Source of the DNA: Candidatus Omnitrophota bacterium
GTDB taxonomy: Bacteria > Omnitrophota > Gorgyraeia > Zapsychrales > JANLHA01
Reading direction: 5' to 3'
DNA length: 64,000 nt
NCBI GenBank assembly: GCA_029560465.1
Contig: JAKQKX010000063.1
Coordinates: 3,796 to 67,795, forward strand
Shown: positions 3,275 to 30,985 of the stretch, piece after piece
Numbering within the stretch: the stretch's first letter is position 1
Layout: each line of letters begins with the position of its first letter
Translations under genes and position numbers: made by a program
Notes under the pieces: generated by a model
What the model was told of the DNA's origin: nothing
Seen by the model: the letters and a program-made list of their open reading frames with translations, nothing else
The model's database searches: none

Positions 3275-4176
3275 CAATCAAAGGGCCGGTTATAAAAAAT
3301 CCATCCATATCAACAAAAATTATAAAGAGATATGGAATGTTCGTTGGCAATCATGGCTTCTATGATACAATAACGTATCCGTGCCCAGAGCACTGTGACA
3401 AAATTATGCTGAACCGTAAAATTATTTTTGACCAAATAACGGCTTTGCTTGAAAAAAAAGTGACACCCGAAGAGATGTACGGGTGGGCTCTCGGGGTCGT
3501 TGTCACGCAGGAATATGAAAAAAGTATCCAGGAGGACCCTCTTATTCATACGGTGCTTGAAGACCTTATGAATATCGCCCAGGGGTCTGTGAATCGGCGC
3601 CCTTCGGAGGATTTGCTGGATTATTACCGGCGGTGCCTCGCCGGGCAGGATGATTATGACTCCAAGATGGCCTCATCACTGTCGAGCAAAGCATACGCGC
3701 GCTTAAAGGGCGCGGAATCCGACGAGCCCTCCTTCGCCGGGCTGAACCGGGGCCTCAAGAAATCCTACAAGAGATCCAAACGGGGGTTCCTGATTTTTTT
3801 GAGAGCGTATGTTTATTTCTTCGCCATTTGCATTATCGCTATTCATCTCGCCTCCATGTTATCTCCGGACCTGGTGGATTATGATGGTTCCGGGAACACC
3901 AATCGGTATATTATGACGGAAGCCATCCCTCACGTGACGTACGCGTTTATTCTCCTGGTGCCGTTCCACTGGCTTGTCAGAAACCAGTGGCTTTTTTTTT
4001 CCTTGCCCGCCATGATCTTCGGGGCTTTTTATTATTGGCGGGTTTCGATCGAATTGATTATTAAGCTGTCGCTTCATCAGTTTTTTATTTTGGTCATTTT
4101 GCCTTTCGGCGCTATCCCGGCCACGGTCGCATTGGTGTTGCTGCTGGTTGAATGGAAACGCACCCGAAGGAGGTAG
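3265..4176 (+). CDS. Hypothetical membrane protein (soluble N-terminal half, 3-4 C-terminal TM helices); start may be the internal ATG near 3337
   Basis: ORF track. Hydrophobic C-terminal segments FLIFLRAYVYFFAICIIAIHLASML and ILVILPFGAIPATVALVLLLV. The listed start overlaps the upstream terminator, so a downstream start is likely. Confidence 0.45.
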   Translation: MLFSIKGPVIKNPSISTKIIKRYGMFVGNHGFYDTITYPCPEHCDKIMLNRKIIFDQITALLEKKVTPEEMYGWALGVVVTQEYEKSIQEDPLIHTVLEDLMNIAQGSVNRRPSEDLLDYYRRCLAGQDDYDSKMASSLSSKAYARLKGAESDEPSFAGLNRGLKKSYKRSKRGFLIFLRAYVYFFAICIIAIHLASMLSPDLVDYDGSGNTNRYIMTEAIPHVTYAFILLVPFHWLVRNQWLFFSLPAMIFGAFYYWRVSIELIIKLSLHQFFILVILPFGAIPATVALVLLLVEWKRTRRR

Positions 4177-15906: not shown

Positions 15907-16830
15907 ATGATAATTCTTATTACAGGACTGCTTGTCGGCGTATCGGAAAGAGTCATTGCCTGGCGTTGGCTGCGCGCGGAAACTCAAGCGCGAGGCGAAC
16001 ATTTTGTTTTATGGGCCACTCTTACCGTCGTGTTCCCCCTGATCGGACTCCCGCTCTACCTTCTTTTCCGTTCCCATGCCCGCCTGTTTTCCTGTCCGCA
16101 CTGTCAGTCCCCGTCGCCAGAGGGCCGTCCCCGTTGCCTGCACTGCGGCACGGCCTGGCCCGCTTCCGGAGCGGATGATGGGGATGCCCTGTCCTGGAAG
16201 TTCCCTGACGGTGTCGTGGTCCCCCTGGCGGCCATCGCCGCTGTCGCCATGAGGCCTCTGTTCGCGTCTTTGCGGTTTTATGACAGACAGATACTTCTGC
16301 GGCCGGGGCTCGCGCTCATTTTAATCGGCGTAACGTACGCTTTATTGATAGGGATATACGCGTGGATCCTCGTCAAAACGCAGCGCGCCGGATGGCAAAA
16401 CAACCCTTTGCCGCTGTTAACCGGAGTCACCCTCGCCCTGGCCACGATTGTCCGCCTCGGCGGCATCAGGAGCGGAGGAATGGTGGTGATCGCCGCGGGC
16501 GTCCTCGTTTTGGCGATCGCTCTGGTCATGTCCGCCAGCCTGCATCTGGCGGTGTATGACGTTCGCCGGACAGTCATGGGGCTGGCGCTCGGGTGGATCG
16601 TTGCCGTCATCACGAATATTTTGGCGATGCCGTATTTCGGTATCACCCAATTCCCGATGATGATATTGCTCATAGCCCCGTTTATGTTGGCTGCCGCGGC
16701 CCTGTCTTTGCGCGCGCGGTTTGTCCGCGGTTCCGACCCGCGGTTGCGTGTCGCGTTCCTTCAGGTCGCCGCGCCGCTTTGGGGGCTGCTGGGCATCGCG
16801 CTTCTGATGGCGTTTCTGGCGAATCACTAA
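15907..16830 (+). CDS. Polytopic membrane protein with PLDc_N-like N-terminal helical hairpin and a CxxC...CxxC zinc-ribbon loop
   Basis: WRWLRAE...VLWATLTVVFPLIGLPLYLLFR resembles the cardiolipin-synthase N-terminal (PLDc_N) motif; CPHCQSPSPEGRPRCLHCG; 6-7 further TM helices. Confidence 0.5.
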   Translation: MIILITGLLVGVSERVIAWRWLRAETQARGEHFVLWATLTVVFPLIGLPLYLLFRSHARLFSCPHCQSPSPEGRPRCLHCGTAWPASGADDGDALSWKFPDGVVVPLAAIAAVAMRPLFASLRFYDRQILLRPGLALILIGVTYALLIGIYAWILVKTQRAGWQNNPLPLLTGVTLALATIVRLGGIRSGGMVVIAAGVLVLAIALVMSASLHLAVYDVRRTVMGLALGWIVAVITNILAMPYFGITQFPMMILLIAPFMLAAAALSLRARFVRGSDPRLRVAFLQVAAPLWGLLGIALLMAFLANH

Positions 16831-19458: not shown

Positions 19459-20637
19459 ATGCACACGTTCGCGTATCAGAAAAATCAGCGTTATTTCGCG
19501 CAAATCGCGGATGGGCTGGAGGACTTGGGGAAGGAGGAGCTCGCCCGCCTCGGCGCGACAGACGTGAAGCCCTCCTACCGGGGGATTTATTTCTCGGCCG
19601 CCCCGGCCGCCCTGTACCGCGTCAATTACAGCGCCCGGCTCATCAGCCGGGTGATGGCCCCGTTGTTGACCTTTGATTGCCACAGCGACCGGTATTTATA
19701 TAAAACCGCGCGGTCCCTGCCCTGGACCGATTTGCTGACCCTTAAAACCACGTTCGCGGTGTTCACCAACGTGGCCAACAGCAATATCCGCCATTCGCAA
19801 TATGCCTCGCAGAAGCTGAAAGACGCGATCGTGGACCAGTTCCGGGACGCCTGCGGCGACCGGCCGCAAGTGGAACCGTTGTCCCCCGACGTCTGGATCA
19901 ACCTGTATATCCACAACAATAAAGCGACGATCAGTTTGGAGACGTCCGGCGGGTCTTTGCACCGCCGCGGCTACCGGCAGGAATCGGTGGAAGCGCCGAT
20001 GCAGGAAACGGTGGCGGCCGCGGTCATCCAGTTAAGCGGCTGGGACGGGGAACGGCCGCTGTACGACCCCATGTGCGGCTCCGGCACGTTGTTGACCGAA
20101 GCGCTCATGCGCGCCTGCCGGATCCCGTCCGGCTACCTGCGGGCGCGTTTCGGATTTGAGCGGCTGCCGGATTTTGACGCCGCGGTTTGGGGTAAAGTGA
20201 AACAGGAGTGCGACAAGCAAATCCGGCCCCTGCCGGCCGGGCTGATCGGCGGGAGCGACGTGTCCCGGGCCGCGGTTGAGGTGGCGCAAAAAAATTGCCG
20301 GATGCTGCCGGGCGGGGGGCAGATCACGATCAAGACGCGGCGTTTTCAGGATATCGAGGCCCTTGAGGACGCCGTGATTATCTGCAATCCGCCTTACGGC
20401 GTGCGCATGAACACCGCCCGGCAGGCGTCGACACTGCTCAAGGAATTCGACACCTTTTTGAAAAAGCGCTGCCAGGGGTCCACCGCCTACGTGTATCTCG
20501 GCAAAAAGGAGCTGCTGCCCCAGATCGCGCTTAGGCCAACCTGGAAAAAGCCGCTCAAGAACGGCGGCTTACAGGGTTTCCTGACAAAGTACGAGATCGC
20601 GGGGGAAAAGAAGGGGAAAGGAAGCGGACGCCATTGA
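19459..20637 (+). CDS. THUMP-domain class I SAM-dependent RNA methyltransferase (RlmL/COG0116-like)
   Basis: N-terminal THUMP-like region, DPMCGSGTLLTEA (motif I) and NPPYG (motif IV). Confidence 0.8.
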   Translation: MHTFAYQKNQRYFAQIADGLEDLGKEELARLGATDVKPSYRGIYFSAAPAALYRVNYSARLISRVMAPLLTFDCHSDRYLYKTARSLPWTDLLTLKTTFAVFTNVANSNIRHSQYASQKLKDAIVDQFRDACGDRPQVEPLSPDVWINLYIHNNKATISLETSGGSLHRRGYRQESVEAPMQETVAAAVIQLSGWDGERPLYDPMCGSGTLLTEALMRACRIPSGYLRARFGFERLPDFDAAVWGKVKQECDKQIRPLPAGLIGGSDVSRAAVEVAQKNCRMLPGGGQITIKTRRFQDIEALEDAVIICNPPYGVRMNTARQASTLLKEFDTFLKKRCQGSTAYVYLGKKELLPQIALRPTWKKPLKNGGLQGFLTKYEIAGEKKGKGSGRH

Positions 20638-20663
20638 AGCGGCCCTGTTTATCTGTGTTTAAT

Positions 20664-20866
20664 TTGGGGGACATGTACCTAATTCGCTTATGAATTAGGT
20701 GCGTGTCCCCGGAATTTACTGCTTATACGACGTTCCGGATAAGTGATATTACAGGGCAAATGGATACCATTTTATAAAAAACAGGGCTATAATAATGAAA
20801 AATCGGGGTAAAAATTGAATTATTCAAATGCCAAGAAACAACGCCAACCAGCAAATGGATAAGTCG
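20664..20866 (+). repeat. Copy 1 of a ~200-bp repeated intergenic element containing a 19-bp-stem hairpin (20667-20710)
   Basis: Near-identical to 27733-27972 (a few substitutions plus a 47-nt indel). Hairpin GGGGACATGTACCTAATTC-GCTTAT-GAATTAGGTGCGTGTCCCC. Lies between a GC-rich upstream gene and an AT-rich downstream cassette. Confidence 0.85.
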
Positions 20867-20905
20867 TTAAAGAAACGTTCGGCATGGAAACGCATATAAC
20901 ACAAA

Positions 20906-22054
20906 ATGACTATTGATCAAAAATATCAAATTGATTTTGTATTAGTAACTCACACCAAAGGTATCTTTTTTAATCCACATCGTCCTGAAGGTTTAGCGTT
21001 CACGCCTTCCACTAAAACAGGGTTGCGTTTCGTTCTCAAGCCATCAGACCCAAAAGGCGATGCGTGTGGTCATCGGGAGGGACTTGAATGCAGACTTTAT
21101 TCATCATATCCGGCAACGAAAGAACAGTTTGATTTTGTAGTTGCAATAAATAATCATAGGGTTATGCTTCGCGTTGCTGATGATATTTCTCTCCCATATA
21201 AACCGAAAGAAGAAATCCTTATAAATAAGGATGGTAAATACAAAGACGGTTTTTCTCCGCGTCGTTATTTGTGTCCATCTGATATTCAACAACTAATAAA
21301 AAATGTCGAGTCGGAACTAGCCTCTCAAACAAGTCAGTTTCTTAAACTGCTTCGATGGCGTCAAGGGATTGATGCTCCAGGCGAAGTTATAGAACACCGA
21401 TCACTTTACTGGAAAGTTGAAGCGGGGGATTGTCATTCAGTCCCTTTAGACGGTGGGTCGCACCATACGGTTGTAGTGCCGGAGATGTATGGCATACATT
21501 GGGATTCTGCTGATTCAGTAGATTTACAAAAGCTTTGGGCACAGGATGATATTGCAGAGCCCCTTGGGCATGCTTTAGTAAGAGAAGCAGCAGCTCTTGC
21601 TTCCGAGTCTCCAAGGAGTGCAATATTAATTATGACAGCAGCACTTGAAACAGCGGTTAAAATGCATATTAGCAACATTGCGCCTGATACGGATTGGCTA
21701 ATGGAGGAAATACCGTCACCACCAATTTTCAAGATGCTACGAGACTATATCCCTTTAATTCATGGTAGACGAGGCAGTGGGTTAGTCTGGTGGGTGAATG
21801 TGAACCCCTTTGTTAAGAAGGTGCAGAAACTTATTGAACTTCGTAACAAGGTCGCGCACACTGGGAAAATTCCTCAGGATGCTGCCCCCATTCATGAGAA
21901 CCTCGAATTAGTATCCGATCTGCTCTATTTGTTGGATGTGTTGGCTGGTCACGATTGGGCAAAGTCACTTGCAAGTCATAAATTTCGTGAAGCACTTGGT
22001 TGGCCCAACCCAACTCATGGCAGGACGACAAGCAAGATAACATGGGGACATTAG
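20906..22054 (+). CDS. AT-rich hypothetical protein with C-terminal HEPN-like domain (Rx4H motif; DUF4145/Apea-like)
   Basis: GC far below window average. C-terminus ...ALETAVKMHISN...VKKVQKLIELRNKVAHTGKIP contains the R-x4-H HEPN signature after a conserved helix; N-terminal ~250 aa unknown. Confidence 0.5.
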   Translation: MTIDQKYQIDFVLVTHTKGIFFNPHRPEGLAFTPSTKTGLRFVLKPSDPKGDACGHREGLECRLYSSYPATKEQFDFVVAINNHRVMLRVADDISLPYKPKEEILINKDGKYKDGFSPRRYLCPSDIQQLIKNVESELASQTSQFLKLLRWRQGIDAPGEVIEHRSLYWKVEAGDCHSVPLDGGSHHTVVVPEMYGIHWDSADSVDLQKLWAQDDIAEPLGHALVREAAALASESPRSAILIMTAALETAVKMHISNIAPDTDWLMEEIPSPPIFKMLRDYIPLIHGRRGSGLVWWVNVNPFVKKVQKLIELRNKVAHTGKIPQDAAPIHENLELVSDLLYLLDVLAGHDWAKSLASHKFREALGWPNPTHGRTTSKITWGH

Positions 22055-22275
22055 AACTAAACAAAGTGGGAATGCCGAACAAGCGCATTCACGCGGGCGC
22101 CGCTACGCGTCGCCGGTGATGCACAGGCGTTAGATGTAAAATAAGGAACAATAATGGACATAATTTCCCCATTAATAATAGTAGTTTTATTTTACAGAAT
22201 TAAATTAGGTGATGAGCGAAAATTCGGGATATTAGCTTTTGATATTCCTAAATAGTAAGCGTTCGGGGGTAATTA

Positions 22276-23268
22276 ATGATGGATAACGCAAAATTGATAT
22301 TTCAACAGTTCGCAAATGATGGTATTGACTATATTTATCAGAATATACTAAGTAAGTCATTAGAAGATACATGGGTTGAATGTAAAGGCAAAAGCGATCC
22401 CTCGCACCCAACACTAGACGAAAAGGATAAGTCAAATTTTGCAAAGAATTTGTCTGGTTTTGCTAATACAAGCGGTGGCGTTTTAATTTTTGGGTTAAAA
22501 GCAACAAAGAATTCAGAAGGATTTGACGTCGTTACAGGGGTACAGCCTATTAAAGACATAGATTCATTTGAAGCTGCTTTAAGAGAACAGGAACCTCGTA
22601 TAGTTGAAAGGGCAATATCAGGAATAGAATATAAAAGGATTTATACTGACAAAAATAAAAAAGAAGGCATTTTGCTTGTTTATGTCCCCGAGAGTACCAA
22701 TCCGCCTCATAGAAGTGTGAAAGACAAACATTTTTATCTGCGGGCTGGAGGGTCTTGTTATCCAATGGATTTGCCTCAGATTGAAAGTTTGGTACTTAAA
22801 AATATAAAACCAGAATTAGAAATAGATTTCTTTTTTCTTACGAATATGAATATATCAGATCCCCAGCAAGATTCAAGGGTGGATTTCATTATGGATTTTC
22901 AAATAAAAAATATCGGTAGAGCCATGGCCAAGAATATATTCGTAAGATTAGAGTTTCCTGGTGGGGGTATATATGAAATTTTCCCAGCTAAAAAAGGTGT
23001 CTATGATAAAGCCAACACGGAAACAAAAAGTGTCGTCTACGATTGGCATTATGATAAACCTATCCATCCTAATATATGCGTTCCAATAGAAGAGGCGACG
23101 CTTTTAGTATCTTGTAACTGCAGAATACCTCTTAGTTTTCCTCGATTCTTATTTGATGTTTCCATTTGTGCCGAGAACATGACATTGAAGTCAAAGAATT
23201 ACAATAAAAGCGGAGACGAAATGTTTAAGTTATTAATGGATCGAGGGGTAAGAAGAAAAATAACATGA
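22276..23268 (+). CDS. AlbA_2 / Schlafen-like (divergent AAA, putative DNA-binding) domain protein
   Basis: EDTWVECKGKSD...LSGFANTSGGVLIFGLK matches the AlbA_2 core (E..E.K....AFANT.GG.L..G). AT-rich. Confidence 0.6.
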   Translation: MMDNAKLIFQQFANDGIDYIYQNILSKSLEDTWVECKGKSDPSHPTLDEKDKSNFAKNLSGFANTSGGVLIFGLKATKNSEGFDVVTGVQPIKDIDSFEAALREQEPRIVERAISGIEYKRIYTDKNKKEGILLVYVPESTNPPHRSVKDKHFYLRAGGSCYPMDLPQIESLVLKNIKPELEIDFFFLTNMNISDPQQDSRVDFIMDFQIKNIGRAMAKNIFVRLEFPGGGIYEIFPAKKGVYDKANTETKSVVYDWHYDKPIHPNICVPIEEATLLVSCNCRIPLSFPRFLFDVSICAENMTLKSKNYNKSGDEMFKLLMDRGVRRKIT

Positions 23269-23283
23269 TGAGTCCTAGTCGAG

Positions 23284-23361
23284 TTATCACATCCTCGGCA
23301 TTAACGCCGTGATGTTTTTTGTCATCGTTGCCGCTGCGCTTTATGGCAAGTCAACCGCGCT
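23284..23361 (+). pseudogene. 78-bp fragment of the cation-diffusion-facilitator gene (identical to 30234-30311)
   Basis: Perfect nucleotide identity over 78 bp to the internal part of the CDF gene at 30132-30773 (encodes LGINAVMFFVIVAAALYGKSTALLA); flanks differ on both sides. Confidence 0.85.
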
Positions 23362-23463
23362 GCTGGCTCTTTGGGGTGTCCATAACAACCGCATGAACCG
23401 GATCGTGTCCCTGTTGGGCCACTCCGGGTTATGCGCGGCGTTCGACGAAGAAAGGAGGACGCA

Positions 23464-24090
23464 ATGAAATTCAACTGCATAAACTGCGGACAGAGCTTGG
23501 AGGCTGATTCAGACATGGCCGGGACTTCGGTGACATGCCCGGTTTGTTCCAAAGACATAAAAGTGCCGGGCCCGAAGGACCAGCCGATCCGAGTCCGACG
23601 AACGACCCCACCGCCAGTTCCTCAACAGCCTTTTTCAGAGACATCCCCGCTCAACACGGGATTACAGCCCAGAAGCTTCTTCGGCACCGCGTCTATGATC
23701 TTTGGGGTCACGTCCCCTCTGTTTGCGCTTGGGTTCGACTTCCTGATGTCCCTGCAAACGGGTGTACCTTTCGGGAGAATGCTGACCATATCCATACCGA
23801 CGGGATTTATGTTCGGGCTCCTTTTCGGGCTGATCATGGCCGCATTCCTGAAAGCAGACACCATCACTGTCAACATCCGGGATAGAGATGACTTTGTCTC
23901 TCGAATCAATGTGGCCATGTCTCAGATCGGTTTCTATCCGGAAACGGGATCAGGCAACTTCCTGATCTTTAAACCTTCCTTTTGGGCCGGATTGATGTCC
24001 GGACGGTTTTCAATAGTAATTCAAGGCAGCAAAGCGACAATCGTAGGCCCGAGTAAGTATCTGAAGAATATCCAGAAGAGGTTCGTATAG
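23464..24090 (+). CDS. Zinc-ribbon (CxxC...CxxC) membrane protein, hypothetical
   Basis: MKFNCINCGQ...VTCPVCSK, then a Pro-rich linker and 2-3 TM helices; strong RBS GAAAGGAGG; GC like the host core genome. Confidence 0.55.
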   Translation: MKFNCINCGQSLEADSDMAGTSVTCPVCSKDIKVPGPKDQPIRVRRTTPPPVPQQPFSETSPLNTGLQPRSFFGTASMIFGVTSPLFALGFDFLMSLQTGVPFGRMLTISIPTGFMFGLLFGLIMAAFLKADTITVNIRDRDDFVSRINVAMSQIGFYPETGSGNFLIFKPSFWAGLMSGRFSIVIQGSKATIVGPSKYLKNIQKRFV

Positions 24091-24202
24091 GTAGTGCCGA
24101 ACAAGCCGGATGCATGCGACGGCTTGCAGCCGCGCGTGATGCGCAGGTGTTATTTTAGTTGATTTCATTGCAATTACTTATCATATATGTTAAGATTATG
24201 GC

Positions 24203-24841
24203 ATGGAATTTGAAGAGTTTGTGTATAAAGTACAAGATTTGCCGGTTATCATTACAGAATATTTTTCTGCCGGGCAGAAGGATAGTCTGCCGATGGAGGT
24301 CCAGTTAAGTCGTTGGAAAAAGTCCGGTAAAATTATTCAACTCAAGCGGGGGGTATATCTTTTAGCAGAACCTTACCGAAAACGGCAAGTTTACGAATTT
24401 TATCTTGCAGGCCTTCTCCAACAGCCTTCCTATATCAGTTTGGAAAAAGCTTTTGAATTTCATAATCTTATCCCTGAAGCCGTAAATAGCTTTACCAGCG
24501 TTACTCCTAAAAGACACGCATGTTATGAGACCCCTGTTGGTCGTTTTGATTATCGGCACATTCGAGAGTCATTATTTTGGGGATATCAATCCGTAACCCT
24601 TTATGGCCAGACGGCGTTTATGGCTTTGCCTGAAAAGGCGCTTTTGGATTTTTTTTATCTTTCCCCGCATGAGCCGGATGAAGATTATTTGAAGGAGATG
24701 CGTCTGCAAAATTTAGATTTAATTGAACCTGAAAAAATGGAGTATTTTTCGCGTAGATTTGGAAAGCCGAAGTTGCGGCGCACCGCCGAGGCGATGATCA
24801 AACTGTGTGAAAAAGAAAGACAGGAAGAAAAAACGTTATGA
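24203..24841 (+). CDS. abiEi: AbiEi-family antitoxin / transcriptional regulator (type IV TA, abortive infection)
   Basis: About 210 aa with an N-terminal winged-HTH-like region; 4-bp ATGA overlap with the downstream AbiEii nucleotidyltransferase gene. Confidence 0.65.
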   Translation: MEFEEFVYKVQDLPVIITEYFSAGQKDSLPMEVQLSRWKKSGKIIQLKRGVYLLAEPYRKRQVYEFYLAGLLQQPSYISLEKAFEFHNLIPEAVNSFTSVTPKRHACYETPVGRFDYRHIRESLFWGYQSVTLYGQTAFMALPEKALLDFFYLSPHEPDEDYLKEMRLQNLDLIEPEKMEYFSRRFGKPKLRRTAEAMIKLCEKERQEEKTL

Positions 24842-25659
24842 AAGATTATTGTTTAGAACTGGCGGCTGCTAAAAGTGGGTATGACGCTAAACTCAACACG
24901 ATGCGGGAATATTTACAGGCGTATATTCTGCGAATTATGCAACAACAGCATATTTTTAGAACGACAGCTTTTATGGGTGGTACGGCCTTAAGGTTCATAT
25001 ATAAATTACCCCGTTTTTCTGAAGACCTGGACTTTTCTCTGGTTGATCAACCGGATTGGAAGTTTGCCGATTTGATTGCCAATATTAAAAAACAATTTAT
25101 GGATGCTGGATATAATATTCATGTCAAATACAAGGATCAGAAAACAGTGCAACATGCTTTCTTCCATTTTGATCAACTTTTGTATGATGCGGACCTGTCA
25201 CCTATACGAGATCAAAAATTCAGCATCAAATTGGAGGTTGATACCAATCCACCGCTGGGTGCGGGAGTAGAAACAAAGGTTTCCAATATCTATTTCCCGG
25301 TCAGTTTCTTGACGTACGATCTGCCATCTTTGTTTGCCGGAAAGCTTCACGCTTTGTTGAGCCGCGGGTTTACCAAGGGCCGTGATTTTTATGATTTGGC
25401 CTGGTATCTTTCCCGCTTTGATGGTGGGATTAAACCAAATTTCAACATGCTTAATCATGCGCTTGTGCAGTCCCATTGGCAGGGGGCGGAGTTAAATGAA
25501 AAAAACGGGTGGTCTGAATTAACAAAAATCGTCAAGGCGGCTGACTGGAAAAAGGTCAGAGAGGATGTTGAGAAATTCCTTGAAAATCCCAAGGATATGG
25601 ATGTTTACACGCAAGAGACTGTGTTGGGATTAGTGGCGAGTTGGGATAAAGAAGAATAA
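24838..25659 (+). CDS. abiEii: AbiEii/AbiGii-family nucleotidyltransferase toxin (DUF1814)
   Basis: FMGGTALRFIYKLPRFSEDLDF matches the GGTAL...R.SxDxDF nucleotidyltransferase motif of AbiEii. Confidence 0.8.
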   Translation: MKDYCLELAAAKSGYDAKLNTMREYLQAYILRIMQQQHIFRTTAFMGGTALRFIYKLPRFSEDLDFSLVDQPDWKFADLIANIKKQFMDAGYNIHVKYKDQKTVQHAFFHFDQLLYDADLSPIRDQKFSIKLEVDTNPPLGAGVETKVSNIYFPVSFLTYDLPSLFAGKLHALLSRGFTKGRDFYDLAWYLSRFDGGIKPNFNMLNHALVQSHWQGAELNEKNGWSELTKIVKAADWKKVREDVEKFLENPKDMDVYTQETVLGLVASWDKEE

Positions 25660-25771
25660 TCAGCGCCTGGCTCCCGGGGACGAAAAATCATATGGCCGCC
25701 CCGCCCCTCCGACCGTAAGAATGAAAAATGGGCCGGTAACCGATATTTCCAAACGAAAGGCTGGATAACCT

Positions 25772-26314
25772 ATGAACATGGCATCACGGCTTCTTCTTTT
25801 AACCGTATTCGTTAGCGTGTGTTCCGGATGTTGTGTCGCGTATGTTGTCACCGTGCCTGCCGCCGTAGTCAGCGCTGCTTTTATGAAAAAACATAAAGTC
25901 CATACTTCACAAGAGGTCCGCACGAAAGATGGCGCGCACGTTTATTTCTTGCAGCTGTCGGTCCCCCTGACAACGCTTCAAAAGGCCGACGGGCCGGAAC
26001 TGCTTTTTTTCTCGGTCATTGCGCGATCGCAATTTAATCCTGCAAAACCATGCGTATATCGGATATTTGCGCAAAAGATCCGGGATGGGAAAGAAGTCGG
26101 CGGCCCCGCCGTGGTCCTGGAATGGCGAATCAAGCATCCCCATGAGCCCCGTTGGGATATACAGGAGTTGTTTTTTGATCCCGTCAGAATGATTTCAGAT
26201 AAAAGGATAAGGGATACCGGAATCATCTATCGCGTTCGGGGCAAGAAAGCGGAGCGGGAACAATTTCTGGCTGTTCTTGAGAAAGACATTCTGGGCCGGA
26301 TTACCCAGGAATAA
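25772..26314 (+). CDS. Hypothetical lipoprotein/secreted protein
   Basis: Signal peptide with Cys-rich end LLLLTVFVSVCSGCC. Confidence 0.45.
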   Translation: MNMASRLLLLTVFVSVCSGCCVAYVVTVPAAVVSAAFMKKHKVHTSQEVRTKDGAHVYFLQLSVPLTTLQKADGPELLFFSVIARSQFNPAKPCVYRIFAQKIRDGKEVGGPAVVLEWRIKHPHEPRWDIQELFFDPVRMISDKRIRDTGIIYRVRGKKAEREQFLAVLEKDILGRITQE

Positions 26315-26352
26315 TGAGGGGGATTCTGACGGTATTATAAAGAAGGAGAATC

Positions 26353-26592
26353 ATGGATAAACAGATTTTTATATCTTTAGCGTGTATCATCGCGGGATTA
26401 TTCAGCTCAATTTGCGCCGGGATGGATTTTGATTTTTTTATGAATCACAGAAAAGCCCGATTCTTTGTGAAAATATTGGGCAGAAACGGCGCTCGGATTC
26501 TTTATGTTTTACTCGGCATCGCCATGATTATTGTTGGCGTTGGTTTTTTTACCGGGATCATCCCCTTGCAAGGGGAGCCTGTTTTTCAGTGA
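26353..26592 (+). CDS. Small membrane protein (2 TM), hypothetical
   Basis: ORF track; two hydrophobic helices; RBS AAGGAG. Confidence 0.35.
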   Translation: MDKQIFISLACIIAGLFSSICAGMDFDFFMNHRKARFFVKILGRNGARILYVLLGIAMIIVGVGFFTGIIPLQGEPVFQ

Positions 26593-26687
26593 TAAATAAT
26601 TTTGATAACGCCCGGCCTGATTGCCCGCTTTAAAACGGGGGGACAACTGCCGGGTGAACTCATGCGTCCGGCCGGGAGGATAAAACC

Positions 26688-27491
26688 ATGGCAAAAGCAT
26701 ACGTTCACGGATACGATCCGCGGGAGAACATTCGCTTACAGGATCAGGCCACCACCTTGGTTGACCTGCTGCATTCGGACACGGCCTATCCGGCGGGAAG
26801 CCGCGTCCTGGAAGCCGGCTGCGGAGTCGGCGCGCAAACGGTGACCTTGGCGAGAAACAGCCCCGGGGCGTCCATCGTGTCCATTGATATCGCGGAGGAA
26901 TCGCTCGCGCAGGCGGAGCGGATTGTCCGGGCGGCAGGGATGCCCAACGTCCGGTTCCAGCAGGCGGACATCTACCACTTACCCTTTGCCCCGCAATCAT
27001 TTGACCACGTCTTTGTTTGTTTTGTGCTGGAGCACTTGAGAGAGCCGGGCGCTGCCTTGCGGAAGCTGAAAGAGTGCCTGCGGCCGGGCGGAACCATCAC
27101 CGTCATTGAAGGCGACCACGGCTCTGCCTGCTTTCATCCCGACAGCGATGCGGCGCGCGCCGCGATTCACAGCCAGGTCGAATTGCAGTCTCGCGCGGGC
27201 GGCAACGCGCTCATGGGAAGGGCGCTGTATCCGTTGCTGGTTACAGCGGGCTATCGTGATGTCCGGGTGTCCCCCCGGATGGTATATGTTGATTCCAGCA
27301 AGCCGGAACTGGTCGACGGATTCACGAAGAAGACATTTACGGCGATGATCGAGGGTGTGCGTCAATCGGCGATCGAGGAGGGCGTCATCGAGCCCGCGCT
27401 GTTCGACCAGGGAATCAAGGACCTGTACCGAACGGCCGAGCCCGACGGCACATTCTGCTACACCTTTTTCAAAGCCCTGGGAAAAGCATGA
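26688..27491 (+). CDS. Class I SAM-dependent methyltransferase
   Basis: VLEAGCGVGAQTV motif I, acidic motif II ISIDIAEE, FDHVFVCFVLEHL; RBS GGGAGGA. Confidence 0.75.
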   Translation: MAKAYVHGYDPRENIRLQDQATTLVDLLHSDTAYPAGSRVLEAGCGVGAQTVTLARNSPGASIVSIDIAEESLAQAERIVRAAGMPNVRFQQADIYHLPFAPQSFDHVFVCFVLEHLREPGAALRKLKECLRPGGTITVIEGDHGSACFHPDSDAARAAIHSQVELQSRAGGNALMGRALYPLLVTAGYRDVRVSPRMVYVDSSKPELVDGFTKKTFTAMIEGVRQSAIEEGVIEPALFDQGIKDLYRTAEPDGTFCYTFFKALGKA

Positions 27492-27520
27492 ACGCCGAAC
27501 CATGAAAGGAGATTCTTAAC

Positions 27521-27733
27521 ATGCAGGTATTGGGGGTTTTGCTGTTGATCGCTGGTTTGGTCTTTGGAGCCGTTGGTATCTGGAGGAAAAAGAATCCTGG
27601 AGGCCCTGTCTTCTTTGGTCATGTAACGGACAGCATCCGGGACCTCTATGGTGTTAAAACGCCTGGCCATTGGCCGATCATCGTGGGGGCAATTTTGTTC
27701 CTGGCCGGCCTTGTCCTCGTGCTGCTGAAGTAG
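27521..27733 (+). CDS. Small 2-TM membrane protein
   Basis: Two TM helices; RBS AAAGGAG. Confidence 0.45.
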   Translation: MQVLGVLLLIAGLVFGAVGIWRKKNPGGPVFFGHVTDSIRDLYGVKTPGHWPIIVGAILFLAGLVLVLLK

Positions 27734-27972
27734 GCCGGGTTTTGGGGACAGATGACTTAATTCGCTTATGAATTAGGTGCGTATCCCCGGAATTTTGGAA
27801 TTTGCCCGGAATTTCTGTGTTAAAGTGGAAACCCTGATTATCCGACGTTCCGGATAAGTGATATTACAGGGCAAATGGATACCATTTTATAAAAAACAGG
27901 GCTATAATAATGAAAAATCGGGGTAAAAATTGAATTATTCAAATGCCAAGAAACACCGCCAACCAGCAAATG
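27733..27972 (+). repeat. Copy 2 of the repeated intergenic element with hairpin (27735-27779)
   Basis: See copy 1. Carries an extra 47 nt with three reiterations of CCGGAATTT; again directly 5' of an AT-rich cassette. Confidence 0.85.
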
Positions 27973-28011
27973 GATAAGTCGTATAATAATTGTTCGCTAT
28001 AAGGGATATAG

Positions 28012-28605
28012 ATGACAGAGCAAGAAAAGAGGAATATTGAAGAATCAATTGATAACGTAAAAAACGCCTTCCAGAGAGCGCCAAACGTCCTTCTTACTGA
28101 GGAAGATCTTCGTGTGCACCTTTGCCATAGACTTATCAATCATTTCGGTACGGAAAATAGGACAAACGATGGCGACATATCAATATCATTACATACGGAA
28201 ATACGCTGGTACGGGAATGGAAATCTAAAGACTCGATCTGATATTGTGCTTGTTGACGTTTCAAGTCTTGACGTTAGTAAGCATTTTAAACTGCCTAGCA
28301 AAGGTTATGGATTCAACATTCCTAAGGCTATTATTGAATTGAAATTCCGCCGTCCGAACGGAGAAGCTACATCCCAATTTCTTAAGAAGATACGTCAAGA
28401 TATCATAAAGCTTCAAGAACTCATCCGAGTTTTTGAGACTGTTCAAGGACAAAACACGGTTGCGTTCTGGATGGTCGTATTTGACAAGAAGCACAATATT
28501 CAGTGTAATATTGACGAACTAAAAATTCCACCCGGTGTGAATGTTACATATTGTTTTGCAGAAAGTAGCGAACAAACGCCTGCACCGGACGCTGTGCGCC
28601 GGTGA
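28012..28605 (+). CDS. AT-rich hypothetical protein with PD-(D/E)xK nuclease-like motif arrangement
   Basis: Helix with E (EEDLRVHLCHRLINHF), beta-strand ending in D (RSDIVLVD), then AIIELKF (ExK); spacing typical of restriction-endonuclease-like fold; GC roughly 35%. Confidence 0.5.
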   Translation: MTEQEKRNIEESIDNVKNAFQRAPNVLLTEEDLRVHLCHRLINHFGTENRTNDGDISISLHTEIRWYGNGNLKTRSDIVLVDVSSLDVSKHFKLPSKGYGFNIPKAIIELKFRRPNGEATSQFLKKIRQDIIKLQELIRVFETVQGQNTVAFWMVVFDKKHNIQCNIDELKIPPGVNVTYCFAESSEQTPAPDAVRR

Positions 28606-28639
28606 GGTGCCGCGTTAGATTTATAGAAAAGGGGGTTTT

Positions 28640-29017
28640 ATGACTCAGCTAATAATTGGTTATTTAATATCTACAGTTGTTGGAGCATTTATCATGAAGT
28701 TTGTTATGGAGAAAAAAGTATGGGGAAAATGGCTGCAAGATAAAGAAGAAAAAAATGAAGATAAGAAAAAAAATATAAAAAAAATATCAATGCTAGTGGG
28801 CATTCTTGAACGTGTTTTATATACTACCGCAATAATAATGGGCCAATATTCTTTTATTGCTATATGGTTAGGTATTAAAGTTGCACCAAAATGGGGCAAG
28901 TGGCATGAGGAAGAAAATCGTGGTATCTTTAATGCATTTTTGATAGGCAATGCGTTATCTATTATCATAGCCTTCGTGGGAGCATGGGTTATTAAACCAA
29001 GTATTCTTAAAATATAA
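28640..29017 (+). CDS. Small 4-TM membrane protein with K/E-rich cytoplasmic loop
   Basis: Four hydrophobic helices; loop KEEKNEDKKKNIKK; RBS AAAGGGGG; very AT-rich. Confidence 0.5.
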   Translation: MTQLIIGYLISTVVGAFIMKFVMEKKVWGKWLQDKEEKNEDKKKNIKKISMLVGILERVLYTTAIIMGQYSFIAIWLGIKVAPKWGKWHEEENRGIFNAFLIGNALSIIIAFVGAWVIKPSILKI

Positions 29018-29193
29018 TCAGGAAATCTAACACCTATAAGGCCCCGGAAGTCGAGATAAAGAGTTTGCCCGACGAAGATTTTTAAAGATTTTTGAAATTT
29101 ATAAAGAAGAGTTGTTCATTGGATTTGTGTAAAAATGTCTATCTGTGGATTGGGCGGCAATCCGGTTGTCGGTATATTGAGGAGGTTGCGTTC

Positions 29194-29907
29194 ATGGTTC
29201 TACGAGAATGTCCGTCTGAGGAAGAGTGGAACGAGATTTTTGGCAATTCTCTATTCCCGGATATCCTAAAATTTGTAGATAGTTTAAAACGTTCTGGTAA
29301 GACTTATGAAGATGGCTTTGAATTTATACGGGGAATAGAAACGCGTGAATATTACTTTCAACTTCGCCACAGAATAGCAGATACAGCAATAAGTTATGTG
29401 TTTGTAGTGTACTTCTATAATAAGGGTATACCTGATAAACGTTGGTCTGTTTCTCCCGGCAGGGACGGATGTTCTGTGGAATACTTCCCAGATTTTGAAA
29501 ATATACATTATGAAATAAAGAAATGGTTCGACTACTATTCTGACGTTTTCTACTATAAGTTATTTTCGGCCCTAGACATCGTTGGTCATATCTTAAACAA
29601 CACTCAAAATCTTAAGATCAAAAAAAGTAAAGTTTCGTTTTCCAGAAGCCTCAGAAAACTTGAGGGCATCAATGATGAATTATTTGAAACCATTAATTCC
29701 ATCAATCAAAATCAGGATTTTAAGACGGCCCAAGAAATTAGAAATGATATAACACATAATTACTTGCCAAGCTCAGTGGGGGTTTCTGTAACTATTGATG
29801 AAAAGCAAGGAATCGTTGGAGAAAGAGCTTACATTACCTCCTGTGATATCATTAACAATATTAACTCAATGCTTAAATTGTTTAAGCAAATTTTAGACGC
29901 TATATGA
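29194..29907 (+). CDS. Abi-like protein with C-terminal HEPN motif (Rx4H)
   Basis: TAQEIRNDITHNYLPS carries R-x4-H; start chosen at ATG 29194 preceded by GAGGAGG (track lists a TTG at 29092); AT-rich. Confidence 0.5.
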   Translation: MVLRECPSEEEWNEIFGNSLFPDILKFVDSLKRSGKTYEDGFEFIRGIETREYYFQLRHRIADTAISYVFVVYFYNKGIPDKRWSVSPGRDGCSVEYFPDFENIHYEIKKWFDYYSDVFYYKLFSALDIVGHILNNTQNLKIKKSKVSFSRSLRKLEGINDELFETINSINQNQDFKTAQEIRNDITHNYLPSSVGVSVTIDEKQGIVGERAYITSCDIINNINSMLKLFKQILDAI

Positions 29908-30131
29908 AAAATAGCCCAACAAAAAATGCAGCGGATGCGTAGTCAGGCCCCTGATTTTGGGCGTTGTGTGAAAAAAAACAGGGGAAACTTGTCCACACAA
30001 ATAATCCAACCCTGCCATCTGTTATGGGGCAATACATCACCCCTTTCTTTGTACAGGATAAAAATGGCTAAAAATATTCCACTAACGATTCAATTGAGCG
30101 GATCGGCCTTGCGGCCTCCCGCTTATTTTGG

Positions 30132-30773
30132 ATGTTAGATCGCTATAAGGATTGCGCTATGAGTGGTTGTTGTGACAAGGATTGTTCTTTAGAACGCCTG
30201 CGGGAACGGCAGCGCGGAACGTTGCAAATTGTCCTCGGCATTAACGCCGTGATGTTTTTTGTCATCGTTGCCGCTGCGCTTTATGGCAAGTCAACCGCGC
30301 TGCTGGCTGACAGTCTTGATAATCTTGGAGACGCATTGACATACGGCCTTAGCCTCTACGCGGTTTCGAGGGGCACTGCCGTTAAGGCCAAAGTCGCCCT
30401 GTTTAAGGGCGGGCTTATTTTCCTGGCGGCTGTTACCGTGGCCGCTCAAATTATTTACAAGTTTTTTGTCCCAGGTCTGCCCATTTTCGAGGTTATGGGC
30501 GCGTTCAGTCTTCTTGGCCTTGCCGCAAACTCCCTTTGTCTTTTTCTGCTGTGGCGACATCGCCACGAAGATGTGAATATGAGTTCCGTGTGGGAGTGCT
30601 CGCGAAACGACATCGCATCCAATCTTTCGGTTTTCGTGGCGGCCGGCGCGGTCTGGTTCACCGGTTCAGGCTGGCCTGATATTGTGGTTGCCGTGGGTCT
30701 CGTGTGGCTTTTAATGCGTTCCGCTCTTCGCGTTATTTCTTCAGCGATGGTAGAGCTTCGTACGGCAGCCTGA
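30132..30773 (+). CDS. Cation diffusion facilitator (CzcD-like) transporter, short form (213 aa, TM domain only)
   Basis: Cys-rich N-terminus CAMSGCCDKDC, TM helices with DSLDNLGDALTYGLSLYA (CDF signature-like). The cytoplasmic C-terminal domain found in most CDFs is absent. Confidence 0.7.
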   Translation: MLDRYKDCAMSGCCDKDCSLERLRERQRGTLQIVLGINAVMFFVIVAAALYGKSTALLADSLDNLGDALTYGLSLYAVSRGTAVKAKVALFKGGLIFLAAVTVAAQIIYKFFVPGLPIFEVMGAFSLLGLAANSLCLFLLWRHRHEDVNMSSVWECSRNDIASNLSVFVAAGAVWFTGSGWPDIVVAVGLVWLLMRSALRVISSAMVELRTAA

Positions 30774-30920
30774 CAATTCGCTCAACACGGACGGGTCAAA
30801 GCACCGCAGGAGTAAAACAACAACCGCTTCGCGGACAACCGCAGGACAAGGCTGTTGAGCAACAGTTCGAGGATGAATAAAGAATATGTCTAGGGACCTG
30901 CTCCCCGGGAAAGACTGCGA

Positions 30921-30985
30921 TTGCAGGATCAGGCGGCCACTCTGGTTGACTTGTTGCGTTCCGGCCATGGGGCGCTTCCGGCTGT
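30921..30985 (+). pseudogene. Diverged remnant of a paralogous methyltransferase N-terminus (homologous to 26733-26795)
   Basis: About 72% nucleotide identity over ~58 nt; encodes RLQDQAATLVDLLRS versus RLQDQATTLVDLLHS in the intact MTase; reading frame diverges afterwards. Confidence 0.35.

What the first reader, a model, noticed from the sequence alone, without database searches (positions are those of the whole stretch)
23284..23361. Perfect 78-bp internal fragment of the CDF transporter gene duplicated 7 kb upstream, directly after cassette I
Positions 23284-23361 are 100% identical to 30234-30311 inside the intact CDF gene, while all flanking DNA differs. In both places the CDF sequence lies just downstream of an AT-rich cassette that itself follows the repeated element. 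This implies an ancestral unit [repeat - cassette - CDF (- MTase)] that was duplicated or recombined. Copy 1 lost most of the CDF gene and acquired different cargo (zinc-ribbon protein, abiEi/abiEii, lipoprotein). The perfect identity points to a recent event and marks this as an actively rearranging hotspot.
Basis: seen in the sequence. Interest (0 to 1): 0.6.

Follow-up and report, generated by a model that had tools for sequence, protein, structure and literature searches.

The report
Gene-fragment scar in integron cassette array
A perfect 77-base copy of part of a metal-transporter gene is a leftover scar inside a patched-together mobile gene cassette, in a chromosome stretch of an uncultured bacterium where small defence-gene cassettes are swapped between strains; the scar is ordinary, but it reveals an integron-like cassette array with no integrase nearby.

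Summary
The repeat is real but slightly misplaced. A perfect 77-nt direct repeat lies at 23292-23368 and 30232-30308, the second copy inside an intact CDF gene. Eleven independent metagenome assemblies give the same arrangement, so it is not an artefact.

The "AT-rich cassettes" are integron-type gene cassettes, each an ORF followed by an attC hairpin. They form two arrays, each starting at the last G|TT of a conserved ~200-nt element (R). No integrase is in the window, so this is a CALIN-type locus. The CDF gene is itself a cassette, found with attC sites in several phyla.

A sister strain (98% identity) has the same backbone. Both of its arrays hold different cassettes, and it has no CDF fragment.

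The fragment sits inside a chimeric cassette. In order this holds an AlbA_2 gene torn from a type I restriction locus (23 nt of hsdR remain), 1 nt, the fragment, 11 nt, and a non-cognate attC.

Most likely the fragment is a recent, strain-specific, non-functional recombination scar copied from the resident CDF cassette. It is not the remnant of an ancient [repeat-cassette-CDF-MTase] duplication. The "rearranging hotspot" idea holds. Which illegitimate joins produced the scar remains unresolved.

The parts
20663..20877 (+). R1: a conserved ~200-nt element after the RlmL-like gene. It holds a hairpin (20666-20710), the palindrome TTATACGacgttCCGGATAA and a TATAAT box, and ends ...GTCGTTAAAGAAACG|TT. 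The final G (20877) is the cassette insertion point.
   Evidence: Homology with the sister strain (L094) and a more distant relative (L095) stops here. The first cassette's attC R'' is 7/7 complementary to G plus the cassette's own start.
20878..22129 (+). Cassette 1a: a 382-aa HEPN-like ORF (20906-22054) plus its attC.
   Evidence: Pfam gives a weak RiboL-PSP-HEPN match, E=0.0034, below the cut-off. Own R' is GTTCGGC and R'' is GCCGAAC, 7/7. Absent from the sister strain.
22074..22135 (+). attC 'a' (GCCGAAC...GTTAGAT).
   Evidence: Covariance model R1 scores 51.4 bits, E=2e-11 (this is a training site). It lies 20 nt after the ORF stop.
22130..23440 (+). Chimeric cassette 1b. In order it holds: a TTAGAT cassette start, the AlbA_2 segment, an hsdR stub, the CDF fragment, 11 nt, and the non-cognate attC 'f'.
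   Evidence: Own R' is GTTAGAT but R'' is CCATAAC, only 4/7. It is one of two poor fits among 16 cassettes tested.
22276..23268 (+). AlbA_2 (Schlafen AlbA_2) ORF, 330 aa.
   Evidence: Pfam PF04326, E=1e-15. Positions 22229-23290 are 84-86.5% nt identical to L107 and L108.
23268..23290 (+). 23-nt stub (ATGAGTCCTAGTCGAGTTATCAC) of the partner gene, the type I restriction R subunit.
   Evidence: Alignment with L107 and L108. The L108 partner is PADLOC REase_I, E=0. Homology ends at 23290.
23292..23368 (+). The finding: a 77-nt sense-strand copy of CDF gene nt 101-177 of the 30132 frame (transmembrane helix 1). It has no start and no 3' part.
   Evidence: Absent from the sister strain. No microhomology at either junction, read directly.
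23380..23446 (+). attC 'f' (CCATAAC AAC CGCATGAACCGG ... CCGGGTTATGCG CGGC GTTCGAC), 11 nt after the fragment. The crossover G is at 23440.
   Evidence: Model R1 scores 42.5 bits, E=6e-9 (training site).
23441..24149 (+). Cassette 1c: a zinc-ribbon / transmembrane protein ORF (23464-24090) plus attC 'b' (24096-24155, GCCGAAC...GTTATTT).
   Evidence: 47 bits. R''/own-start fit is 6/7. Absent from the sister strain, and W/L094 homology resumes at 24163.
24150..27733 (+). Block shared with the sister strain: AbiEi 24203-24841, AbiEii 24838-25659, lipoprotein 25772-26314, Imm17 26353-26592, SAM-MTase 26688-27491, small TM protein 27521-27733.
   Evidence: Pfam and PADLOC. It is 97.5% identical to L094 12689-16515. 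The model detects no attC here.
27740..27992 (+). R2: the second copy of R, with the hairpin and a 37-nt insertion. The crossover G is at 27992. Its core is chimeric, with an R2-type 5' part and an R1-type 3' part.
   Evidence: The first cassette fits 7/7.
27993..30134 (+). Array 2, the strain-specific cassettes:
- A 197-aa ORF (28012-28605) with attC 'c' (28567-28620).
- A 125-aa TM ORF (28640-29017) with R'' ATCTAAC at 29025.
- HEPN_Cthe2314 (29092/29194-29907) with an attC at 29914-29969.
- An ORF-less unit with attC 'd' (30080-30140).
   Evidence: Pfam. Model R1 E-values run from 8e-9 to 1e-6. Two of these cassettes fit 7/7. The sister strain has different cassettes here.
30135..30854 (+). 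The CDF gene cassette. It starts G|TTAGAT, and the ORF is 30159 (or 30132) to 30773. It contains the source copy at 30232-30308.
   Evidence: Pfam Cation_efflux. W/L094 homology starts at 30134. Homologous CDF cassettes with attC sites occur in other phyla.
30780..30860 (+). attC 'e' of the CDF cassette (GCTCAAC...GTTGAGC, a perfect RYYYAAC/GTTRRRY pair).
   Evidence: Its first 16 nt are shared with the attC after the CDF homolog in L042, which sits next to an IntI fragment. Model R1 does not detect it.
30879..30970 (+). Remnant (about 30 codons) of a paralogous SAM-MTase. It is 70.7% identical to 26694-26784 and is present in both strains.

Best explanation
The region from 20.7 to 30.9 kb is a pair of integron-type gene-cassette arrays with no integrase gene nearby, i.e. 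a CALIN-type locus. Each array starts at the terminal G|TT of a conserved ~200-nt element, R.

The intact CDF gene is itself one such cassette. The 77-nt copy is a non-functional scar inside a chimeric cassette of the first array. It was made in this strain's lineage, after the split from the sister strain, from the resident CDF cassette 6.9 kb downstream.

My preferred route has three steps, all inferred:
1. A second copy of the CDF cassette, or a DNA segment reaching from R into CDF, was placed in array 1. This happened by cassette shuffling or by ectopic recombination using the near-identical R copies as homology.
2. One illegitimate join fused an AlbA_2 gene segment, cut 23 nt into its hsdR partner, to CDF nt 101.
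3. A second illegitimate join linked CDF nt 177 to 11 nt plus the attC of another cassette. Only 77 nt of CDF survived.

Shown: the anatomy, the junctions, lineage specificity, the cassette nature of the region, and chimerism of R.
Inferred: the order and mechanism of the joins, and loss of function.
For: - **attC sites.** attC-like hairpins sit on the + strand right after ORF stops. On the 16-site alignment, 81% of cells are paired against 29-46% when partners are slid, and 22 double changes compare with 10.2+-2.3 in shuffles.
- **Model specificity.** In the window a covariance model built from these sites scores only the six array sites, at E 2e-11 to 1e-6; the next best hit is E=1.4. In held-out loci it finds 27 hits at E<0.1, 26 of them on the CDF strand. 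These include a ten-site array in L083 and sites abutting CDF in L020, L024, L029 and L036.
- **Independent cassette test.** R'' was compared with the complement of G plus the cassette's own first 6 nt. It fits 6-7/7 in 14 of 16 cassettes, including the first cassette after eight R copies in six different loci.
- **Integrase.** An IntI1 query finds no integrase in the window. The same query does detect IntI fragments beside CDF homologs in L042 and L086.
- **Strain comparison.** The sister strain shares the backbone but has other cassettes and no fragment.
- **Allele identity.** The fragment is 77/77 to the window's own CDF allele, 76/77 to the sister's, and 92% or less to others.
- **Left junction.** It falls 23 nt into the hsdR partner gene.
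- **Chimerism.** The cassette holding the fragment is one of only two poor R''/start fits, at 4/7.
- **Exchange between arrays.** W_R2 has 4 mismatches to W_R1 but 10 to its ortholog L094_R2. W_R1 also carries a hairpin that L094_R1 and L095_R lack.
Against: - No intermediate was found, such as array 1 with an intact second CDF cassette. Every contig carrying the same AlbA_2 or zinc-ribbon protein shows the same arrangement.
- The route needs two illegitimate joins, both without microhomology.
- The attC after the fragment is not the CDF cassette's own attC.
- The attC model is self-built, and L-box complementarity was one of my criteria for selecting sites. IntegronFinder was not run.
- No integrase is known for this organism.
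- Loss of function is assumed. A 51-aa ORF (23312-23467) runs through the fragment and was called as a gene in the JGI annotation.
Confidence: 0.6

Rival explanations
1. Single complex event. One deletion or rejoining in array 1, between hsdR codon 8 and the 3' end of another cassette, was repaired with a templated patch. A polymerase switched template to the nearby CDF gene, copied 77 nt plus one untemplated base, and switched back.
For: It needs only one event. The copy is perfect and comes from a template 6.9 kb away on the same strand. One unassigned base (A at 23291) sits at the left junction. The cassette is a patchwork of at least four sources, all in sense orientation.
Against: There is no microhomology at either junction to prime a template switch. 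To my knowledge, templated filler insertions of this size are poorly documented in bacteria. Sequence alone cannot separate this from two successive deletions.
Confidence: 0.2
2. An ancestral unit [R - cassette - CDF - MTase] was duplicated in tandem. Copy 1 then lost most of CDF in place and gained new cargo.
For: There are three collinear matches, R, CDF and MTase, with similar spacing. R after the RlmL-like gene is old, since it is present in L095.
Against: - The identities are 97%, 100% and 70.7%, which do not fit one duplication.
- The fragment and the zinc-ribbon cassette are missing from the sister strain, which keeps the AbiE-to-MTase block.
- The fragment's left neighbour is an hsdR stub, not cassette or CDF sequence.
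- A dead fragment as old as the MTase remnant would not be 77/77.
Confidence: 0.08
3. attL/attR-type duplication. The 77-mer is the core site of a 6.9-kb integrative element (23369-30308) that inserted into CDF.
For: Perfect direct repeats flank about 6.9 kb, and the right copy lies in a gene.
Against: - No recombinase lies between the repeats.
- Before insertion CDF would have had no 5' end, because the left flank is AlbA_2/hsdR.
- The sister strain has the interior block (AbiE...MTase, R2) but not the left repeat.
Confidence: 0.03
4. Assembly chimera or collapsed repeat.
For: Short repeats can mislead short-read assemblers.
Against: Eleven independent contigs from different samples and assemblers are 99-100% identical. 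They include a megahit k141 contig (L006) that spans the fragment and both flanks.
Confidence: 0.02

Closest known systems
CALIN: cluster of attC sites lacking an integron-integrase (Cury et al. 2016, PMC4889954)
   Same: At least seven attC-type sites lie on one strand with ORFs in the same orientation. No intI is nearby and no intI pseudogene is detected. The cassettes have unknown or defence functions.
   Different: Each array is headed by a conserved, multi-copy ~200-nt element (R) whose last G|TT is used repeatedly as the insertion point. That is attI-like behaviour, which is not part of the CALIN definition. Two arrays are separated by a 3.6-kb block with no recognisable attC.
Sedentary chromosomal integrons as stores of anti-phage defence cassettes (bioRxiv 10.1101/2024.07.02.601686; 10.1101/2024.07.02.601719)
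   Same: The cassettes encode HEPN-type proteins, an AlbA_2 protein and Imm17, and an AbiE toxin-antitoxin pair lies within the arrays. Cassette content turns over at strain level.
   Different: There is no integrase or canonical attI in the locus. The host carries a Candidatus Omnitrophota MAG label, not Vibrio or Xanthomonas. No defence activity was tested.
Cassette insertion at non-classical genomic sites (attG, consensus GWT; bioRxiv 10.1101/2022.09.11.507474) and delta-attI-type cassettes (PMC12901181)
   Same: Cassettes are joined to non-attC DNA at a G|TT. Expression would depend on a resident promoter, and R has a TATAAT box.
   Different: The same site in R is used in every R copy examined: nine copies in seven loci, with the cassette fit checked for eight of them. 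attG insertion is scattered across a genome. R is not adjacent to intI, unlike attI.
Homology-facilitated illegitimate recombination and deletion scars in mobile-element hotspots (general knowledge, not checked in the literature here)
   Same: One-sided homology (R) combined with illegitimate joins would leave short orphan gene pieces such as this one.
   Different: No donor or intermediate was observed. The junctions lack the 3-10 nt microhomology usually reported.

Membership tests
Integron cassette array / CALIN | Two or more attC sites clustered on one strand. | tested here: met
   Six sites at E 2e-11 to 1e-6 with my covariance model, all on the + strand between 22074 and 30140, and nothing else in 64 kb below E=1. 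In addition there is attC e (30780-30860) and R'' at 29025. Caveat: the six are training sites for the model.
Integron cassette array / CALIN | attC architecture: R''(RYYYAAC) - spacer - L'' with extrahelical base(s) - variable stem - L' - spacer - R'(GTTRRRY). | tested here: met
   81% of cells are paired against 29-46% when slid, and covariation exceeds all 500 shuffles. L-box complementarity was one of my selection criteria, so this evidence is partly circular.
Integron cassette array / CALIN | Cassettes behave as units cut at G|TT: R'' is complementary to G plus the cassette's own first bases. | tested here: met
   14 of 16 cassettes fit 6-7/7, and nine of them fit 7/7. In the first 14, 43 of 56 free positions match against about 14 expected by chance. 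This feature was not used to select the sites.
Integron cassette array / CALIN | No integron-integrase gene nearby. | tested here: met
The same query finds IntI fragments in L042 and L086, which serves as a positive control. No IntI-specific profile search was run.
Integron cassette array / CALIN | Detection by the reference tool (IntegronFinder attC model) and IntI-dependent recombination. | not testable with these tools
   IntegronFinder's model is not available here, and no experiments were possible.
Complete integron (intI + attI + Pc + cassettes) | intI adjacent to the first cassette. | tested here: not met
   Upstream of R1 lie the RlmL-like, DeoC and ADH genes. Upstream of other R copies lie a CAAX protease, or SmpB and a PEP-CTERM protein. 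No IntI hit appears in any R-bearing locus.
Complete integron (intI + attI + Pc + cassettes) | An attI insertion site with a promoter reading into the cassettes. | tested here: inconclusive
   R's terminal G|TT is the junction for the first cassette in all eight R copies checked for fit. R has a TATAAT box, but the sigma-70 scan calls no consensus promoter on the + strand. No binding or transcription data exist.
   Identities are 97%, 100% and 70.7%. The fragment is absent from the sister strain.
Integrative element flanked by attL/attR | A recombinase gene within the element, and a target gene reconstituted at one end. | tested here: not met
   No recombinase lies in 23369-30231. The left flank is an hsdR stub.
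Cation diffusion facilitator (Pfam PF01545) | A full-length Cation_efflux domain. | tested here: met
   The gene at 30132-30773 matches with E=6e-14, covering profile positions 2-197 of 198. The 77-nt fragment encodes only about 25 residues of transmembrane helix 1, so it is not a member.

The most novel reading that the evidence does not exclude
R is a portable, attI-like landing pad. It is a ~200-nt element with a symmetric operator-like palindrome, a TATAAT box, direct repeats (GCAAATGGATA x2, GGATAAGT x2) and a terminal G|TT. R seeds and feeds cassette arrays at several chromosomal sites without a linked integrase, served in trans by an integrase elsewhere in the genome or community. The R copies also act as homology arms that move cassettes, and scars such as the CDF fragment, between arrays. 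A further unexcluded reading is that the patchwork AlbA_2 cassette shows a non-cassette gene being recruited into a cassette frame. How new cassettes are created is stated to be unknown (PMC4889954).
Probability: 0.3. Interest if true: 0.65.

Novelty: new member of a known kind. Interest (0 to 1): 0.35.

Why it matters
The fragment itself matters little. It is a dead scar, and it misleads annotation, because a 51-aa "gene" was called across it.

Following it up shows three more useful things:
- An uncultured bacterium carrying a Candidatus Omnitrophota label has integrase-less, integron-type arrays whose defence-like cassettes turn over between strains that are 98% identical.
- A small CDF metal transporter circulates between phyla as a gene cassette.
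- Every array examined begins at the same base of a conserved multi-copy element.

If R proves to be a trans-served attI-like platform, this would offer an explanation for how at least some CALINs arise and stay active. The chimeric AlbA_2 cassette would then be a rare natural example bearing on how cassettes acquire new genes.

Tried and rejected
- **Integrative-island reading (attL/attR).** Rejected: no recombinase inside, and the sister-strain structure does not fit.
- **Known RNA families.** Rfam at gathering threshold finds only two tRNAs in the whole window. At E<=1 over 20600-24200 it finds only a chance miRNA hit.
- **R as an ordinary cassette bounded by G|TTAAAG.** Rejected: homology between R copies continues 12-15 nt to the left of that motif, and R has no attC-like 3' hairpin.
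- **Generic attC-like scans of my own.** One (RYYYAAC...GTTRRRY plus hairpin) hit all over the window. The other (L-box with one bulge) gave 50 hits against 12-31 in shuffles. I relied instead on position, the R''/own-start test and the covariance model.
- **Strict attC search after CDF in 79 genome loci.** It found only 4. The covariance model later found many more.
- **IntI secondary-site (GWT / G|TT) crossover at the fragment borders.** The junction sequences do not fit.
- **Search for the state before the insertion.** Exact-protein look-ups for CDF, AlbA_2 and the zinc-ribbon protein, plus AlbA_2 homologs, gave only the same strain or non-cassette contexts.
- **Conserved neighbours of CDF.** None across 80 genomes.
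- **PADLOC on cassette proteins.** Only AbiEi and AbiEii match.
- **Sigma-70 scan.** It does not call a promoter in R.

Full report
**1. The observation**

The window holds a perfect 77-nt direct repeat at 23292-23368 and 30232-30308, spaced 6940 nt apart.

The second copy lies inside an intact Cation_efflux (CDF) gene at 30132-30773; the more likely start is ATG 30159, giving 204 aa. It covers nt 101-177 counted from 30132. Sequence on both sides of the two copies is unrelated. Only three direct-repeat families of 30 nt or more exist in the 64 kb, so chance is excluded.

A sensitive self-blastn of 19-33 kb finds exactly three collinear matches:
- The element I call R: 20663-20898 ~ 27740-28010, with a 153-nt core at 97% and one 37-nt indel.
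- The CDF 77-mer at 100%.
- A methyltransferase N-terminal piece: 26694-26784 ~ 30879-30970, at 70.7%.

**2. Not an artefact**

The window comes from JGI contig Ga0116242_10000617. Eleven further contigs are 99-100% identical to it. They come from other samples and assemblers: JGI 3300009780, 3300009782, 3300025855; ENA ERZ795059, ERZ27257428, ERZ27257431, ERZ761564; Logan SRR4244858. Contigs found show the same gene order.

L005 spans both copies and L002 spans both. The megahit k141 contig L006 spans the fragment with both flanks, and its k-mer is longer than the repeat.

**3. Gene map**

All genes below are on the + strand:
- RlmL-like RNA methyltransferase, 19459-20637.
- R1.
- A 382-aa protein with a weak HEPN signature.
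- A Schlafen AlbA_2 protein.
- The CDF fragment.
- A zinc-ribbon/TM protein.
- AbiEi and AbiEii.
- A lipoprotein.
- Imm17.
- A SAM-methyltransferase.
- A 70-aa TM protein.
- R2.
- A 197-aa protein.
- A 125-aa TM protein.
- A HEPN_Cthe2314 protein.
- CDF.
- The MTase remnant.
- Bact_hydrolase and hemerythrin.

The stretches after R1 and R2 have 34-45% GC, against 55-65% in the backbone.

**4. Relatives**

The RlmL-like protein has a 99% relative on NCBI GCA_030153525.1 and JGI 3300045917, fetched as L093 and L094. Blastn shows the same backbone at 97.5-98.7% identity, but two segments are replaced:
- W 20875-24162 corresponds to 1.3 kb in L094 that encodes a 143-aa protein and a HEPN_AbiU2 protein.
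- W 27995-30133 corresponds to 2 kb in L094 holding several small ORFs.

The sister strain therefore lacks both the CDF fragment and the zinc-ribbon gene. It keeps the AbiE-to-MTase block, R2, CDF and the MTase remnant.

A more distant relative, L095 (RlmL 83% aa), keeps R after the RlmL-like gene. Its homology to the window ends at the same base of R.

An exact 25-mer from R found four further contexts in metagenomes:
- L100/L106: a CAAX protease and an 84-aa ORF, then R, then HEPN_Cthe2314.
- L102/L103.
- L104: SmpB and a PEP-CTERM protein, then R, then DUF4279.
- L101: R, a lipoprotein, a partial R, then further genes.

In all of them homology stops at ...GTCGTTAAAGAATTGTT.

**5. The cassettes are integron-type**

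Directly after ORF stop codons, on the + strand, lie hairpin sites with attC architecture: xxxxAAC, a spacer, an L'' arm with a bulged base, a variable stem, an L' arm, a spacer, then GTTRRRY. The W sites are 22074-22135, 23380-23446, 24096-24155, 28567-28620, 29914-29969, 30080-30140 and 30780-30860. Similar sites occur in L094, L095, L101, L104 and L106.

On a 16-site alignment, 81% of cells pair, against 29-46% when the partners are slid. There are 22 double-change cells against 10.2+-2.3 in shuffles, with 0 of 500 shuffles reaching the observed value. L-box complementarity was one of my selection criteria, so this result alone is partly circular. Three independent lines remove the circularity.

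(a) Cassette logic. If cassettes are cut at G|TT, then R'' should complement G plus the cassette's own first six bases. This holds at 6-7/7 for 14 of 16 cassettes, and at 7/7 for nine of them. In the first 14 cassettes, 43 of 56 free positions match against about 14 expected by chance. The set includes the first cassette after R in W_R1, W_R2, L094_R1, L094_R2, L095, L101, L104 and L106.

(b) Strain-variable boundaries coincide with these G|TT points: 20877, about 24149, 27992 and 30134.

(c) A covariance model built from the 16 sites scores only the six array sites in the window; the next hit is at E=1.4. In loci not used for training it gives 27 hits at E<0.1, and 26 of them lie on the strand of the CDF gene. 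These include a ten-site array in L083 and sites abutting CDF in L020, L024, L029 and L036.

The same query does find IntI fragments next to CDF homologs in L042 and L086. The locus therefore meets the published definition of a CALIN (PMC4889954).

**6. CDF is a cassette**

CDF has 354 relatives in genomes of many phyla. The 80 best are 78-91% identical in amino acid sequence and share no neighbours with the window.

Many of these relatives have no attC nearby. In others, including Omnitrophota, Fermentibacteria, Thermodesulfobacteriota, Gallionella, Thiogranum and Desulfobulbaceae MAGs, the gene is bounded by G|TTAG.. 25-40 nt before the ATG and by an attC right after the stop. The attC after the W gene shares its first 16 nt with that of L042.

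**7. Where the fragment sits**

AlbA_2 DNA (W 22229-23290) is 84-86.5% identical to L107 and L108. In those loci the gene is followed, with overlapping stop and start, by a large partner gene. In L108 that partner is a type I restriction R subunit (PADLOC REase_I, E=0).

W keeps only the first 23 nt of that partner (23268-23290). Then comes one unassigned base, then CDF nt 101-177, then 11 nt, then attC f.

This cassette starts TTAGAT, which predicts R'' ATCTAAC, but its attC has CCATAAC, a 4/7 fit. The cassette is therefore a patchwork of at least four sources. Neither border of the fragment shows microhomology. Neither fits a G|TT or GWT integrase site.

**8. Origin and timing**

The fragment matches the window's own CDF allele 77/77, the sister strain's 76/77, and all others at 92% or less. 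It is absent from the sister strain. It was therefore made from the resident cassette in this lineage.

There is independent evidence for exchange between the two arrays in this lineage:
- W_R2's core has 4 mismatches to W_R1 and 6 to L094_R1, but 10 to its own ortholog L094_R2. Its 5' columns are R2-type and its 3' columns are R1-type.
- W_R1 carries the GGGGACA...TGTCCCC hairpin that L094_R1 and L095_R lack.

R copies therefore recombine with each other.

**9. Mechanism**

My preferred reading is that a second copy of the CDF cassette, or a segment running from R into CDF, reached array 1. This would happen by cassette shuffling or by R-mediated ectopic recombination. It was then almost wholly removed by two illegitimate joins.

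A single repair event with a templated 77-nt patch is the main rival. I could not separate the two, because all contigs carrying the same AlbA_2 or zinc-ribbon protein show the same arrangement.

The ancient tandem-duplication model is contradicted by the uneven identities and by the sister strain. The attL/attR model is contradicted by the lack of a recombinase and by the sister strain.

The claim that perfect identity proves recency relative to R is weak. At 2.6% divergence, 77 nt would show no mismatch about 13% of the time (my arithmetic).

**10. What R is**

R has a very conserved 5' half, with these features:
- A palindrome, TTATCCG-N6-CGGATAA, which shows a compensatory variant ATATACG-N6-CGTATAA.
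- A TATAAT box.
- A variable middle.
- A conserved 3' end.
- Direct repeats GCAAATGGATA (x2) and GGATAAGT (x2).

Rfam has no match for it. The sigma-70 scan calls no consensus promoter on the + strand.

R behaves like an attI-type insertion point but is never next to an integrase. The published parallels are attG insertion and delta-attI cassettes.

**11. Verdict**

The fragment is an ordinary, probably functionless scar. The context is a new member of a known kind, a CALIN with defence-like cassettes, and R is a feature worth following up.

Limits of this analysis:
- The attC model is self-built.
- The IntI1 query came from memory, although it was validated by true hits in L042 and L086.
- The organism label rests on one NCBI protein name, Candidatus Omnitrophota.
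- No experiment was possible.

Noticed in passing
window 20663-20877 and 27740-27992; L094 11210-11385 and 16261-16513; L095 11267-11442; L101, L102, L104, L106: R is a multi-copy ~200-nt element found in at least six genomic contexts. It always ends ...GTCGTTAAAGAATTG|TT and is always followed by attC cassettes, and it is never next to an integrase. It has a palindrome with a compensatory variant and two pairs of direct repeats.
   Followed up: partly
window 27834-27989 versus 20719-20874 and L094 16355-16510: The core of W_R2 is chimeric. It is closer to R1-type copies (4-6 mismatches) than to its own ortholog in the sister strain (10 mismatches), which implies a crossover or gene conversion inside R in this lineage.
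   Followed up: yes
window 20666-20710 and 27742-27786; L094 ~16270-16316; L101; L106 ~3450-3500 and ~2810-2850: A ~45-nt nested hairpin (GGGGACA..ACYTAATTCgcttatGAATTAGGT..TGTCCCC, then GGAATTT repeats) is present before some R copies and absent before others (L094_R1, L095_R). Related copies lie inside the L106 array. It may be a small mobile or repeat element.
   Followed up: partly
L013-L092, especially L083 314-7776, L038 7694-8619, L024 3089-3175, L020 9598-9665, L036 4216-4319, L029 10610-10696: The ~204-aa CDF gene, 78-91% identical in amino acids across many phyla, sits in attC arrays in a subset of genomes and is a plain chromosomal gene in others. L083 has ten ~124-nt attC sites upstream of it.
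   Followed up: partly
L042 9825-9914 and 9975-10678: An integron-integrase C-terminal fragment lies on the same strand as a CDF cassette, about 60 nt upstream of its G|TTAGGT start. This is the layout expected of an inverted-integrase integron remnant, in a Fermentibacteria MAG.
   Followed up: partly
window 22229-23290; L107 7987-9024; L108 48-1121: The AlbA_2 gene travels with a stub of a type I restriction hsdR gene. The stub is 23 nt in the window and longer and degenerate in L107, which is a mobile-element context with a serine recombinase. hsdR is full-length in L108.
   Followed up: partly
window 30879-30970: An N-terminal remnant (~30 codons) of a paralogous SAM-methyltransferase lies just after the CDF cassette's attC. 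It is 70.7% identical to 26694-26784 and is shared with the sister strain, so it is old.
   Followed up: partly
window 23309-23467 (JGI gene call 23312-23467): A 51-52-aa ORF that starts inside the CDF fragment and runs through attC f was called as a gene in public annotations. It is probably an annotation artefact.
   Followed up: no
window 24150-27733: The AbiEi/AbiEii-lipoprotein-Imm17-MTase-small TM block lies between the two arrays and has no attC detectable with my model. A degenerate hairpin after Imm17 (about 26600-26660) lacks the GTT core. It is unclear whether the block is an old decayed part of the array.
   Followed up: partly
window 57462-57505 and 61842-61885: AT-rich 44-nt inverted repeats, 70% complementary and 4.3 kb apart, were reported by the repeat finder.
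   Followed up: no
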